A DNA stretch of 63,502 nt, filler included, from Collodictyon triciliatum (lineage: Eukaryota): the NCBI GenBank assembly GCA_043381765.1. It is 27 parts of 27 records of this genome, joined end to end, with 100 filler letters (N's around TTAATTAATTAA, not from the genome) between each part and the next. Parts side by side here need not be neighbours in the genome. Positions count along the whole stretch, not along the records: positions 58,903 to 61,152 come from JBHJMP010009209.1; 26 more parts are not named here. One strand, 5' to 3'. The translations under genes were made by a program, and so were the position numbers. Below, piece by piece: positions 58,948 through 60,954 of the stretch. Numbering within the stretch: the first letter of the stretch is position 1; each line of letters starts with the position of its first letter. Below the pieces are notes generated by a model that worked only from the letters and a program-made list of their open reading frames with translations, had not been told where the DNA came from and did not search any database.

Positions 58948-60954
58948 AGCCAATTACGACAGCAGCCCATGGTTCTACGACTGAACACGGTCCGGTGATG
59001 GAAACGAGACCGCCNNNNNNNNNNNNNNNNNNNNNNNNNNNNNNNNNNNNNNNNNNNNNNNNNNNNNNNNNNNNNNNNNNNNNNNNNNNNNNNNNNNNNN
59101 NNNNNNNNNNNNNNNNNNNNNNNNNNNNNNNNNNNNNNNNNNNNNNNNNNNNNNNNNNNNNNNNNNNNNNNNNNNNNNNNNNNNNNNNNNNNNNNNNNNN
59201 NNNNNNNNNNNNNNNNNNNNNNNNNNNNNNNNNNNNNNNNNNNNNNNNNNNNNNNNNNNNNNNNNNNNNNNNNNNNNNNNNNNNNNNNNNNNNNNNNNNN
59301 NNNNNNNNNNNNNNNNNNNNNNNNNNNNNNNNNNNNNNNNNNNNNNNNNNNNNNNNNNNNNNNNNNNNNNNNNNNNNNNNNNNNNNNNNNNNNNNNNNNN
59401 NNNNNNNNNNNNNNNNNNNNNNNNNNNNNNNNNNNNNNNNNNNNNNNNNNNNNNNNNNNNNNNNNNNNNNNNNNNNNNNNNNNNNNNNNNNNNNNNNNNN
59501 NNNNNNNNNNNNNNNNNNNNNNNNNNNNNNNNNNNNNNNNNNNNNNNNNNNNNNNNNNNNNNNNNNNNNNNNNNNNNNNNNNNNNNNNNNNNNNNNNNNN
59601 NNNNNNNNNNNNNNNNNNNNNNNNNNNNNNNNNNNNNNNNNNNNNNNNNNNNNNNNNNNNNNNNNNNNNNNNNNNNNNNNNNNNNNNNNNNNNNNNNNNN
59701 NNNNNNNNNNNNNNNNNNNNNNNNNNNNNNNNNNNNNNNNNNNNNNNNNNCCAATAAATGAAAATGAAGAAAATAAGATTTAACCAAAAAATTTTCTCTG
59801 TTACTTCATGTGACCCACTTCTCGGTATCAATCTTTCATAAGAGAAACAAACTTATATTACTAACCACATGGACGATGCCGCTGCCGGCAAAGTCAATAT
59901 AACCGTTGGTCCCTAAGAATCGGTCTTCCTTGAAAGGACTGACCCACCCGTGCTCTGACCAAGCCCCTTAAACCGTACGAATGCATGTTCAGTGGAAAGT
60001 ATGTAAGTTTGTGTGTAAGTGTATGTATGTGTGATATAAAGCTAGAAAGAGATTGAGAATGACCCCTGAACGAAATTTTATCGTGATTAAATACGTACAG
60101 CGAGCACAAATGGGGTAAATGATAGAAGCCATTGAGGCGCTGAAAATCGCATACGATTTCAGATTACATCTTTCGGCCAAGCTGCCACTCACAATAGTGA
60201 CCGAAACGCAAGCAAACGCCCATGAAATCATCCAATGAGTATACTCGTTTGTATTTATCGTAAAGAAACCATTGTCTCCGATAAATCCGTTTGCAGAATC
60301 TTCTGTTCGATATCCAAACCCAAACCCATAGCCAAAGCCCCAGAAACAAACACTAGCGACGGCGGTATCAAGAATATTCTATGCGAAGAAGAATAAAAGG
60401 GGGGTTTATAGCCTTAAACAATTCTATTTTAATTCAGATAAGTCTATACCTTCATCAATATGTTTTTCGTGTTTTTAGCACGAACGGACCCAGCTTCGAG
60501 CATGCCAAAGCCAGCTTGCATAACTACACAAGCATTTGAAAAAAAAAATAAATAAAAGGGGGTGAAAAACAAAAGAGTTAATCTAAGAAAAAAGTTTGAA
60601 AAAGAAAGAATTAAGTGCAAAGATATACTGCTGTGGAATACCAGATCGAGGCATTAACTTACAGAAGATCATAAAGGAGCAAACAAGTAGCCATGAAACA
60701 TTCACAGATTCACGAAGATCAACAATCTTGCTCTCTACTTCAACCTCTTTTGCCACAACCTCTTCACAGTTTGGGCCAGTATATCCATCGGGGCAAAAGC
60801 AGGCAGCAACCCCGGGAGAAACGTTGTTTGACTCGTTCACAAAACAAATGCCTGGTTCACAGTCTGCGTTGCTTTCACAGGCAAACACAGCCAGATCGAC
60901 AGCCAATACGGCGGTTGCAAGGCACATCATAGCAAGGCACTTGGTGAAGGCCAT
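58948..60954 (-). CDS. AMT: Ammonium transporter (AMT1-type) with N-terminal signal peptide and EGF-like domain, multi-exon, 3' partial
   Basis: [11 protein letters not shown] / [24 protein letters not shown] / NILD...IVSGSLAER...IIYPI / [10 protein letters not shown] / [19 protein letters not shown]. Confidence 0.95.

What the first reader, a model, noticed from the sequence alone, without database searches (positions are those of the whole stretch)
60660..60954. Ammonium transporter fused to a signal peptide and an extracellular EGF-like domain
Seen: a single exon encodes a hydrophobic leader ([18 protein letters not shown]), a six-cysteine module [12 protein letters not shown]...[13 protein letters not shown] and AMT TM1 ([14 protein letters not shown]), so the fusion is not a splicing or linker artefact. 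Established: CxCxxGYxGxxC is the EGF signature, AMT N-termini are extracytoplasmic, and the described AMT fusions I know of are mostly C-terminal signalling domains. Inference: a transceptor or ligand/adhesion-regulated AMT displaying three EGF modules per trimer. Novelty is unverified.
Basis: partly seen in the sequence, partly recalled or inferred. Interest (0 to 1): 0.75.

Follow-up and report, generated by a model that had tools for sequence, protein, structure and literature searches.

The report
Ammonium transporter with extracellular EGF module
A protist ammonium-transporter gene really does begin with a secretion signal and one EGF-like module joined by a helical stalk to the first membrane helix, an unusual but probably structural elaboration of an ordinary transporter.

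Summary
On the minus strand, one exon (60954-60663) encodes a hydrophobic leader, a six-cysteine EGF-like module, a 24-residue acidic linker and the start of AMT helix 1. It is spliced to three further AMT exons.

- **Transcript evidence:** a spliced contig in a public run joins the EGF-coding half of exon 1 to exons 2 and 3 without mismatch. Two metatranscriptome contigs cover the leader and the EGF module.
- **Ortholog:** a complete 506-aa Diphylleia rotans transcript ORF has the same architecture. Pfam EGF and Ammonium_transp both pass their cut-offs there, and all six cysteines align.
- **Fold:** the module models as an EGF fold.
- **Rarity:** none of the other AMT relatives whose N-termini I examined carries such a module, and four literature searches found no description of the architecture.
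- **Limits:** the gene is a fragment on a 2.25-kb unplaced scaffold with an internal gap, so its C-terminus is not in the window.
- **Likely role:** a disulfide-braced cap on an extended helix 1 at the trimer axis, comparable to the plant AMT1 N-terminal disulfide hook. A receptor or adhesion role is possible but unsupported.

Verdict: a new variant of a known kind, of moderate interest.

The parts
58903..61152 (.). The 2250-bp unplaced scaffold that carries the gene. It is flanked by N44-TTAATTAATTAA-N44 linkers.
   Evidence: 27 pieces of 2250-2268 bp, sorted by size
60880..60954 (-). Codons 1-25: start codon and hydrophobic leader (probable cleavable signal peptide, VFA|CE).
   Evidence: hydropathy up to 2.45. 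It aligns with the leader of P0001. The cleavage site was judged by eye; no signal-peptide predictor was run.
60766..60879 (-). Codons 26-63: six-cysteine EGF-like module with two N-x-S sequons (N40, N44) in the C3-C4 loop.
   Evidence: All six Cys are invariant against P0001. The ortholog's module passes the Pfam PF00008 cut-off.
60694..60765 (-). Codons 64-87: acidic, amphipathic linker predicted as a helix continuous with TM1 (the 'stalk'), ending in the conserved sequon N85-V-S before W88.
   Evidence: helix 70-96 in the window model, 52-101 in P0001; self-contacts at 73, 77, 80, 84 in the three-copy model
60663..60693 (-). Codons 88-97 plus 1 nt: start of AMT transmembrane helix 1 and end of exon 1.
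   Evidence: The junction 60663|60523 is seen in an X1 contig.
60524..60662 (-). Intron 1 (139 nt, GT..AG, phase 1).
   Evidence: table 5: 'skips 139', ends CT..AC on the + strand, 74 letters on the shorter side
60450..60523 (-). Exon 2: (F)[24 protein letters not shown].
   Evidence: 23 of 24 residues identical to P0001; 13 of 13 near-invariant AMT columns kept
60379..60449 (-). Intron 2 (71 nt, GT..AG).
   Evidence: table 5: 'skips 71'. A contig of run X3 (labelled 'DNA?') spans it unspliced (record 12).
60099..60378 (-). Exon 3: AMT helices 2-4 region.
   Evidence: Pfam PF00909, E 6.4e-17, 61.8 bits. 67 of 93 residues identical to P0001.
59866..59966 (-). Exon 4: ...[12 protein letters not shown], holding the conserved Asp and the first pore His.
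   Evidence: 9 of 9 near-invariant columns kept. X1 contigs run from exon 3 into it and from it into sequence that lies in the gap (tables 7 and 8).
59015..59750 (.). Assembly gap (736 N) that hides the middle exons.
58948..59014 (-). AMT exon fragment [22 protein letters not shown].
   Evidence: Pfam PF00909 positions 260-281, 23.3 bits against a cut-off of 23.2. 19 of 22 residues identical to P0001.

Best explanation
This is the 5' half of an expressed gene for an AMT1-type ammonium transporter of a freshwater protist. Its closest available relative is in Diphylleia rotans (CRuMs, Collodictyonidae).

After a probable cleavable signal peptide, the mature N-terminus starts exactly at the first cysteine of a single non-calcium-binding EGF-like module that is probably N-glycosylated. 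An acidic amphipathic helix of about 24 residues joins this module to transmembrane helix 1 and runs straight into it. AMT N-termini are extracytoplasmic and AMTs are trimers, so three EGF modules should sit on three stalk helices above the outer face.

The role I think most likely is structural. The stalks would pack around the three-fold axis, and the disulfide-braced EGF heads would cap them. Together they would stabilise the trimer and shape or charge the outer vestibule. That would make this an elaborated counterpart of the disulfide-linked N-terminal 'hook' on the extended TM1 of plant AMT1;1.

Shown: the exon structure, splicing, conservation and domain identities. Inferred: signal-peptide cleavage, glycosylation, topology, the trimeric stalk and the stabilising role.
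For: **Architecture and expression**
- One open exon holds leader, EGF module and TM1.
- A 260-nt contig of run X1 joins 60819-60663, 60523-60450 and 60378-60350 with 0 mismatches. Contigs of run X3 (labelled 'DNA?') keep both intron boundaries unspliced.
- Metatranscriptome contigs cover 60738-60984 (X6) and 60768-60923 (X8), that is, the leader and the EGF module.

**Conservation**
- P0001 is a complete 506-aa ORF from a Diphylleia rotans transcriptome.
- It aligns over the whole of exon 1: 38% identity over 86 residues, E 1e-18. The six Cys, G35, the CFCP-G-TG-C motif and N85-x-S-W are invariant.
- The AMT parts are 135 of 172 residues identical.
- The four differences in the X6 contig are all non-synonymous and all fall in leader codons 6, 7, 9 and 14. 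None falls in the EGF module.

**Domain identity**
- P0001 scores PF00008 EGF 23.8 bits (cut-off 21.5) at residues 23-52, and PF00909 at E 1.6e-118 at residues 79-491.
- In the sequence search of the PDB, all but one of 35 hits at E<=10 are EGF modules.
- The AF2 model of exon 1 has pLDDT 75.9 and the expected hairpins. Its top Foldseek hits are almost all EGF modules; the best has TM 0.69-0.72 and rmsd 2.1 A over 42 columns.
- The P0001 model has pLDDT 88.4 and matches Sd-Amt1, Ks-Amt5, Af-Amt1, AmtB and Mep2 at E 1e-25 to 1e-19.
- 38 of 41 near-invariant AMT columns are kept in the window fragments.

**Stalk**
- Both models show a helix continuous from just after the EGF module into TM1.
- Three copies of residues 26-97 scored 0.55 against 0.01 for the best of 3 controls. 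The mark was reached by 21 of 30 proteins solved as pairs of one chain and by 0 of 23 solved as single chains. On eukaryotes the counts were 17 of 29 and 0 of 30.
- The runs agree in at least 88% of contacts, and the partner pLDDT is at least 70. Least-error contacts are between the same residue in different copies, at 73, 77, 80 and 84.

**Precedents (passages read)**
- AtAMT1;1 has an extended TM1 with a C3-C24 disulfide hook. Its F34 residues stack at the trimer axis. The N-terminal region is needed for oligomer stability and transport (PMC13745463).
- The Mep2 N-terminus contacts ECL5 of the neighbouring monomer and builds a vestibule (PMC4852598).
- In AmtB the first predicted helix is a signal peptide (PMC10433425).
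Against: - The window's own module does not reach any Pfam EGF cut-off.
- In the full-length P0001 model the EGF region has pLDDT of only 51-59.
- The exon-1 model was built on an alignment made of EGF-repeat proteins, so it leans towards EGF. No Foldseek hit reached E<=1e-3.
- No single contig runs from the ATG to exon 2.
- One X1 contig ends at 60853, inside the EGF-coding region, with an adapter-like loose end. This could be a truncated cDNA, but an internal start is not excluded.
- Contigs cannot show transcript starts.
- The three-copy model used an isolated fragment with a truncated hydrophobic TM1. It used three copies where the calibration used two, and the alignment was not used. Amphipathic helices are easily modelled as bundles.
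- Deleting the Mep2 N-terminus (residues 2-27) did not impair growth on ammonium (PMC4852598), so N-terminal extensions can be dispensable.
- The C-terminal third of the window gene is not in the assembly, so an intact transporter is not shown for this genome.
Confidence: 0.6

Rival explanations
1. The EGF modules are a binding surface for an extracellular protein or for another cell, such as prey, a mate or matrix. Binding would modulate ammonium transport, or the protein would signal as a transceptor.
For: - EGF modules commonly mediate protein-protein contacts (established knowledge).
- Both the spliced window product and P0001 match the N1/N2 signature QX6EX15NX2D[F/T]X54-60TX2[S/T], which was proposed to mark Amt-like ammonium receptors (PMC11152129, passages read).
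- None of the other 119 listed hits matches the strict pattern.
- The top structural neighbours of P0001 are the receptors Sd-Amt1 and Ks-Amt5.
Against: - The same paper places proven transporters (AtAMT1;1-3, LeAMT1;1) in the signature-bearing cluster, so the signature does not separate receptors from transporters.
- P0001 has no fused transducer module. Its AMT domain ends at residue 491 of 506.
- No candidate ligand or partner is known.
- The EGF loop between C3 and C4 differs by a 6-residue indel between the two species, which does not suggest a conserved binding face.
Confidence: 0.2
2. The leader and EGF module serve biogenesis and sorting. They would route the transporter through the ER and Golgi to a particular membrane of a phagotrophic cell, such as the phagosome, the contractile vacuole or a surface domain, and would have no role in transport itself.
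For: - The leader looks like a signal peptide. N-x-S sequons are present, and one is conserved next to TM1.
- Dictyostelium Amts are reported on distinct internal membranes (PMC2653498; I saw only the search listing and the start of the abstract).
- Most of the closest eukaryotic AMTs lack any leader, so the leader came in together with the extra domain.
Against: - Nothing tested here bears directly on localisation.
- A folded, disulfide-bonded module is more than a sorting signal would need.
Confidence: 0.12
3. The EGF module is shed like a membrane-anchored EGF-family ligand precursor, and the AMT body acts as the anchor.
For: - The EGF module lies about 24 residues from the membrane.
- Heregulin/neuregulin, Spitz/LIN-3 and epigen are among the weak PDB sequence hits, at E 0.013-0.36.
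Against: - Those hits are no better than hits to Notch, Jagged or coagulation-factor EGF modules.
- The linker is predicted to be a rigid helix continuous with TM1.
- I know of no EGF-receptor homologue in this lineage, and none was tested.
- Known ligand precursors are single-pass proteins (recalled).
Confidence: 0.03
4. The fusion is an artefact or a dead gene: a mis-assembled scaffold, a contaminant or a pseudogene fragment.
For: - The gene sits on a 2.25-kb unplaced scaffold with an internal gap and lacks its 3' part.
- No whole genome is held, so copy number and placement could not be checked.
Against: - The EGF module and TM1 are contiguous within one exon.
- Independent runs hold the same sequence in spliced form (X1) and unspliced form (X3).
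- The reading frame is open through four exons.
- An ortholog with the same architecture exists in an independently assembled transcriptome.
Confidence: 0.03

Closest known systems
Diphylleia rotans transcript ORF (EukProt EP00002, P0001, 506 aa; unstudied)
   Same: It has the same order of parts: leader, one EGF module, helical linker, 11-helix AMT. All six Cys and the N-x-S-W before TM1 are conserved. The AMT parts are 135 of 172 residues identical.
   Different: The N-terminal 86 residues are only 38% identical. The window has a 6-residue insertion with two sequons in the C3-C4 loop. Only P0001's module reaches the Pfam EGF cut-off.
Plant AMT1;1 (Arabidopsis, tomato) with its extracellular N-terminal disulfide 'hook' on an extended TM1
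   Same: Both are of the AMT1 type, judging by the [18 protein letters not shown] motif and the N1/N2 signature. Both have an extracellular, disulfide-stabilised N-terminal element on a TM1 that extends above the membrane. In the plant protein this element lies at the trimer axis and is needed for oligomer stability and transport (PMC13745463, passages read).
   Different: The plant element is about 25 residues with one disulfide, no signal peptide and no recognisable domain. Here there is a complete EGF module with three predicted disulfides, a leader and a longer stalk. The cysteines are not homologous.
Fungal Mep2 (S. cerevisiae, C. albicans)
   Same: It has an N-terminus lengthened by 20-25 residues that contacts the neighbouring monomer and builds an outer vestibule (PMC4852598, passages read). 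The P0001 model matches Mep2 structures at E about 1e-20.
   Different: Mep2 has no cysteine-rich domain and no leader, and it belongs to another AMT subfamily. Its N-terminal deletion mutant grows normally on ammonium.
Amt-like ammonium receptors Sd-Amt1 and Ks-Amt5
   Same: These are the best structural matches to the P0001 model. The N1/N2 sequence signature is present.
   Different: Their extra module is a cytoplasmic C-terminal transducer (diguanylate cyclase or histidine kinase). Here the extra module is extracellular and N-terminal, and there is no transducer.
E. coli AmtB
   Same: It is an 11-helix, N-out protein made with a cleavable signal peptide (PMC10433425, passage read).
   Different: There is no domain between the signal peptide and TM1.

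Membership tests
Amt/Mep/Rh ammonium transporters (Pfam PF00909) | Significant match to the family profile above the curated cut-off | tested here: met
   Exon 3 scores 61.8 bits against a cut-off of 23.2 (E 6.4e-17). The fragment 58948-59014 scores 23.3 bits. The ortholog P0001 scores 396 bits over profile positions 2-399.
Amt/Mep/Rh ammonium transporters (Pfam PF00909) | Eleven-helix fold | tested here: inconclusive
   This is met for the ortholog: AF2 pLDDT 88.4, and Foldseek TM up to 0.94 when normalised to the target against Af-Amt1. The window itself holds only exons for about helices 1-4 plus one later fragment. The rest lies in a gap or off the scaffold.
Amt/Mep/Rh ammonium transporters (Pfam PF00909) | Conserved pore and recruitment residues (Trp/Ser site, Phe gate, Asp, twin His; residue roles recalled) | tested here: inconclusive
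   38 of 41 near-invariant columns covered by the window fragments are kept, including the DFAGSG..H block. The three departures (F164I, Q165S, A352G in P0001 numbering) are shared with P0001. The second His and the Ser/Phe of the later helices are not in the window. They are present in P0001 (one search lists F289, S293 and H395 among its near-invariant columns).
Amt/Mep/Rh ammonium transporters (Pfam PF00909) | Ammonium or methylammonium transport activity | not testable with these tools
   This needs yeast mep1-3 complementation or electrophysiology.
EGF-like domain (Pfam PF00008 and relatives) | Six cysteines with EGF spacing and the C-x-C-x2-G-[FYW]-x4-C / C-x-C-x5-G-x2-C patterns (patterns recalled from PROSITE) | tested here: met
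   Cys lie at 26, 32, 37, 52, 54 and 63. The motif [12 protein letters not shown] is read directly from the sequence, and the same pattern is in P0001.
EGF-like domain (Pfam PF00008 and relatives) | Profile score above the curated cut-off | tested here: not met
   For the window, PF00008 scores 13.0 bits against 21.5 and PF07974 scores 13.5 against 22.1. The ortholog's module does pass, with PF00008 at 23.8 bits against 21.5. The shortfall in the window coincides with the 6-residue loop insertion.
EGF-like domain (Pfam PF00008 and relatives) | EGF fold (two small beta-hairpins) | tested here: met
   The AF2 model has strands 36-39 and 50-53 plus a minor hairpin, with pLDDT 75.9. Its top Foldseek hits are almost all EGF modules. 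The best are TM 0.69-0.72 (normalised to the target), rmsd 2.1-2.2 A and probability 1.00, but E is only 0.026. Caveat: the input alignment consisted of EGF-repeat proteins.
EGF-like domain (Pfam PF00008 and relatives) | Disulfide pairing 1-3, 2-4, 5-6 in an oxidising (extracytoplasmic) compartment | not testable with these tools
   Extracytoplasmic placement is inferred from the leader and from the N-out topology of AMTs (PMC10433425). The pairing needs mass spectrometry or a solved structure.
Amt-like ammonium receptors (AmR: Ks-Amt5, Sd-Amt1) | N1/N2 signature QX6EX15NX2D[F/T]X54-60TX2[S/T] (PMC11152129) | tested here: met
   A regular-expression match covers residues 100-186 of the spliced window product and 91-177 of P0001.
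Amt-like ammonium receptors (AmR: Ks-Amt5, Sd-Amt1) | Fused cytoplasmic transducer module | tested here: not met
   P0001 has no Pfam domain after the AMT domain, which ends at residue 491 of 506. The window's C-terminus is not in the assembly.
Membrane-anchored EGF-family ligand precursors | Single-pass type I protein with a sheddable juxtamembrane EGF module (recalled) | tested here: not met
   The anchor is a polytopic AMT. The linker is predicted to be a helix continuous with TM1.

The most novel reading that the evidence does not exclude
The three EGF heads on a trimeric stalk form a dedicated extracellular docking site. This would make the protein an AMT whose gating or signalling is controlled by a protein ligand or by cell contact, for example during prey capture in a phagotrophic collodictyonid. 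That would couple surface recognition to ammonium flux, a mode of AMT regulation from the outside that has not been described.
Probability: 0.12. Interest if true: 0.8.

Novelty: new variant of a known kind. Interest (0 to 1): 0.45.

Why it matters
Described AMT regulation works from the cytoplasmic side, through the C-terminal tail, GlnK, or fused kinases and cyclases. Only recently was the extracellular N-terminus shown to matter, through the plant AMT1 disulfide hook.

A natural AMT whose N-terminus has grown into a full EGF module on a stalk offers two things. It is an independent example for testing how much the outer N-terminal cap contributes to trimer stability, vestibule electrostatics or redox sensitivity. 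It also shows that extracellular domain shuffling has reached this otherwise conservative transporter family in a deep-branching eukaryotic lineage (CRuMs).

If the module binds a partner, it would be the first AMT regulated from the outside by a protein.

Tried and rejected
- **Whole genome:** none is held, so paralogues, copy number and the missing 3' part could not be looked for.
- **Word-index search with exon 1, longer proteins:** 83 candidates, none at E<=0.01. It missed even P0001, so it is uninformative.
- **Word-index search with P0001 residues 1-130:** 735 hits, 120 listed. Only P0001 covers the EGF part; the others cover at most 61% of the region.
  - Among the 154 stored proteins, 40 matched my AMT motif, and only the three Diphylleia isoforms also matched the EGF pattern.
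  - Of 140 proteins inspected, 43 matched a looser motif and none had 4 or more Cys before TM1. The 94 bacterial rows and 3 short fragments that lacked the motif were checked by eye from their first 60 residues.
- **ESM Atlas with P0001 residues 1-125:** no usable hit.
- **Metagenome contig scans:** with the exon-1 alignment, 409 pattern matches and 0 confirmed. With exon 3, 3 loci, of which two have a best segment 33% identical over the exon and one matches only residues 7-23 at 65%; they were not followed up.
- **Earlier findings of this scan:** nothing by place or by words.
- **Literature:** no paper describing an EGF-AMT architecture turned up.
  - 5 papers hold the terms, 4 were listed, and judging by titles and abstract starts none concerns such a fusion. 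I did not open them.
  - 2 unrelated reviews.
  - 6 papers on Diphylleia plus ammonium, none relevant by title.
  - 0 papers.
  - The two supplementary files held for PMC11152129 contain no 'EGF'. Its Fig. 7B lists domain organisations of fused Amts and could not be seen.
- **Parts of the stretch without contig cover:** not interpreted.
- **O-fucose, O-glucose and calcium-binding EGF consensus motifs (recalled):** checked by eye, and none fits. I did not pursue this.
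Full report
**What the window is**

The 63.5-kb window is not one locus. It consists of 27 scaffolds of 2250-2268 bp, sorted by size and joined by N44-TTAATTAATTAA-N44 linkers. The finding lies on piece 58903-61152, which has a 736-N gap at 59015-59750. No whole genome is held for this window. G+C is 38% and microsatellites are frequent.

**The observation**

On the minus strand an ATG at 60954 follows an in-frame TGA 42 nt upstream. It opens a frame that runs without interruption to a GTAAGT donor after 60663. 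The 97 codons read as follows:
- residues 1-25: [25 protein letters not shown], the hydrophobic leader
- residues 26-63: [38 protein letters not shown]
- residues 64-87: [24 protein letters not shown], the linker
- residues 88-97: [10 protein letters not shown], the start of helix 1

**Gene model and transcripts**

I placed the exons by eye and by frame:
- exon 1: 60954-60663
- exon 2: 60523-60450
- exon 3: 60378-60099
- exon 4: 59866-59966

An isolated AMT fragment lies beyond the gap at 59014-58948. Spliced, exons 1-4 give 249 codons without a stop.

Laying public runs on 59760-61055 gave these results:
- A 260-nt contig in run X1, with 0 mismatches, joins 60819-60663 to 60523-60450 to 60378-60350. 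Both introns (139 and 71 nt, GT..AG) are removed. The second half of the EGF module is thus physically linked to AMT exons 2 and 3.
- Other X1 contigs run from exon 3 into the first bases of exon 4, and from exon 4 into sequence that must lie in the assembly gap.
- Run X3 (labelled 'DNA?') holds the unspliced form across both intron boundaries.
- Metatranscriptome contigs cover 60738-60984 (X6, 4 differences) and 60768-60923 (X8, 0 differences). That span is the leader plus the EGF module.

Caveats on the transcript evidence:
- All of these are contigs, which cannot show transcript starts.
- No single contig spans from the ATG to exon 2.
- One X1 contig stops at 60853, inside the EGF-coding region, with a loose end that I recognise from memory as a cDNA template-switch adapter. 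It is most simply a truncated cDNA.
- The X6 contig departs from the window just upstream of 60984, directly after a TAG. This could be a 5'-UTR intron acceptor or strain divergence.

The four X6 differences are all non-synonymous and all lie in leader codons 6, 7, 9 and 14. None lies in the EGF module. That pattern is what one expects of a signal peptide next to a constrained module, though the sample is small.

**Is it an AMT?**

- Exon 3 hits Pfam PF00909 at E 6.4e-17, and the post-gap fragment hits profile positions 260-281.
- The closest relative found is P0001, a 506-aa complete ORF from the EukProt transcriptome of Diphylleia rotans, with two isoforms in the same cluster. The taxonomy is CRuMs, Collodictyonidae.
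- Against P0001 the window's AMT parts are identical at 23 of 24, 67 of 93, 26 of 33 and 19 of 22 residues.
- 38 of 41 columns that are at least 90% conserved among 38 AMTs are kept. The three exceptions are shared with P0001.
- The AF2 model of P0001 (39-row alignment, pLDDT 88.4) matches Sd-Amt1, Ks-Amt5, Af-Amt1, AmtB and Mep2 at E 7e-25 to 1e-19.

**Is the module an EGF?**

- On the window's own sequence, Pfam EGF-type models are only sub-threshold (E 0.03-0.22).
- On the ortholog, PF00008 passes its cut-off: 23.8 bits against 21.5, residues 23-52.
- phmmer of exon 1 against 1.84 billion representatives found 11 proteins at E<=1e-3. The best, at E 1.4e-43, matched through 33 stretches.
- 10 of the 11 best stretches show the EGF C-x-C...G-x2-C motif. 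8 of the 10 scanned carry Pfam EGF families, and none carries PF00909.
- Against PDB sequences, all but one of 35 hits at E<=10 are EGF modules. The best E is 0.008.
- An AF2 model of exon 1 (10-row alignment that included EGF-repeat proteins, pLDDT 75.9) has the expected hairpins. Its top Foldseek neighbours are almost all EGF modules: TM 0.69-0.72 normalised to the target, rmsd 2.1 A over 42 columns, but E no better than 0.026.
- The window and Diphylleia N-termini align end to end at 38% identity over 86 residues, E 1e-18. Invariant positions include the Ala before Cys1, all six Cys, G35, CFCP-G-TG-C-E, several linker positions (V67, V73, D79, L80, S83) and N85-x-S87-W88.

Taken together, I accept the module as EGF-like. 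The window's copy is a divergent one, with a 6-residue insertion carrying two sequons in the C3-C4 loop.

**How common is the fusion?**

- Scoring only residues 1-130 of P0001 gave 735 AMT hits. Of the 120 listed, only P0001 covers the EGF part; the rest cover at most 61% of the region.
- Pattern checks found no EGF pattern or Cys-rich N-terminus outside the Diphylleia cluster.
- Other eukaryotic relatives have Cys-poor N-termini of 9-111 residues before helix 1.
- The ESM Atlas, two metagenome scans and four literature searches added nothing.
- Pflueger et al. (PMC11152129, passages read) state that Amts with N- or C-terminal fused modules exist, but the passages I read do not name them. Their Fig. 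7B was not visible, and their two held supplements contain no 'EGF'.
- InterPro could not be queried. I can therefore say the fusion was not found, but not that it is absent from databases.

**Mechanism**

Established knowledge is that AMTs are trimers of 11-helix subunits with the N-terminus outside, and that AmtB is made with a signal peptide (PMC10433425, passage read). The EGF module should therefore be extracytoplasmic. Its disulfides and the N-x-S sequons at N40, N44 and N85 fit that placement.

Both AF2 models make the linker a helix continuous with helix 1. By eye, the linker is amphipathic with a V73-I77-L80-V84 stripe, and it is acidic: seven acidic and three basic residues in the window.

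A three-copy model of residues 26-97 passed the tool's mark:
- The score was 0.55 against 0.01 for the best of 3 controls.
- The mark was reached by 21 of 30 proteins solved as homo-pairs and by 0 of 23 solved as single chains. On eukaryotes the counts were 17 of 29 and 0 of 30.
- The runs agree in at least 88% of contacts, and the partner pLDDT is at least 70.
- The best-defined contacts are between the same residue in different copies (73, 77, 80, 84). That is the signature of a parallel bundle on an axis.
- Caveats: this was an isolated fragment with a cut hydrophobic helix, it used three copies where the calibration used two, and the alignment was not used. It supports the idea and does not show it.

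The geometry has a precedent. In the cryo-EM structure of AtAMT1;1, TM1 extends above the membrane and ends in a 'hook' braced by a C3-C24 disulfide. F34 of the three protomers stack at the axis. Loss of the disulfide or of the N-terminus reduces oligomer stability and transport (PMC13745463, passages read). In Mep2, a longer N-terminus contacts ECL5 of the neighbour and builds a vestibule, although its deletion is tolerated (PMC4852598, passages read).

I therefore favour a structural reading: an EGF-capped trimeric stalk that stabilises the trimer and perhaps concentrates cations above the pores. I give the architecture about 0.9 and this particular role about 0.45.

**Rival readings**

The spliced window product and P0001 both match the proposed N1/N2 receptor signature, while 0 of 119 other listed hits match the strict pattern. 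However, the same paper places proven plant transporters in that cluster, and P0001 has no transducer domain. The sorting, shed-ligand and artefact readings are less likely, for the reasons given under the rival explanations.

**Verdict**

It is a new domain-architecture variant of a well-known transporter family and not a new kind of system. The gene in this window is incomplete, and the function of the module is inferred only.

Noticed in passing
window 1-63502: The window is a chain of 27 unplaced scaffolds of about 2250 bp, joined by N44-TTAATTAATTAA-N44 linkers and sorted by length. Neighbouring 'genes' are therefore not neighbours in the genome.
   Followed up: yes
window 60775-60819: Run X1 holds a second contig of 94 nt that matches the end of the EGF-coding part with 3 mismatches in 45 nt and then continues differently (record 4). 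Read in frame, the loose end still supplies a Cys at the sixth-cysteine position. This may be a paralogue or allele with a related EGF module.
   Followed up: no
window 60984-60985: The X6 metatranscriptome contig departs from the window 30 nt upstream of the ATG, directly after a TAG (table 7). This could be a 5'-UTR intron acceptor or strain divergence. The 21 loose letters carry no stop in the ATG frame.
   Followed up: partly
window 60853: One X1 contig ends here, inside the EGF-coding region. Its loose end looks like a cDNA template-switch adapter (recognised from memory), so X1 is probably a SMART-type cDNA library and this is a cDNA 5' end.
   Followed up: partly
window 60240-60251 (exon 3) and P0001 residues 164-165: The otherwise near-invariant F-Q pair of AMT helix 3 (36 of 38 sequences) is I-S in both the window and Diphylleia. 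It is a clade-specific change close to the outer vestibule.
   Followed up: no
window 31295-32494 (+): An ORF with a GPS (GPCR proteolysis site) motif, E 6e-6. This is another metazoan-style extracellular element in the same assembly.
   Followed up: no
window 14737-15867 (-), 26372-27523 (-), 36655-37341 (-), 37742-39799 (-): Other scaffolds carry a retroelement integrase core (rve), a LIM-domain ORF, ankyrin repeats and a 14-repeat WD40 ORF.
   Followed up: no
window 59999-60034 (intron 3): Short GT-rich contigs of run X3 (labelled 'DNA?') pile up here at depths up to 122, with 2-3 mismatches. This looks like a low-complexity repeat shared with other sequences and is not gene signal.
   Followed up: no
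P0005 (Heterostelium album, 703 aa): A dictyostelid AMT with an N-terminal ubiquitin-conjugating enzyme domain (PF00179) ahead of the AMT domain. It is a different N-terminal fusion in the same family.
   Followed up: no
window 61060-61152, 58712-58802, 62226-62400, 63080-63150, 63400-63502: Long microsatellites ((AAAAG)n, (ATT)n, (ATT/GTT)n, (ATTT)n, (ATTCT)n) sit at or near scaffold ends. They probably explain why these pieces were not assembled further.
   Followed up: no
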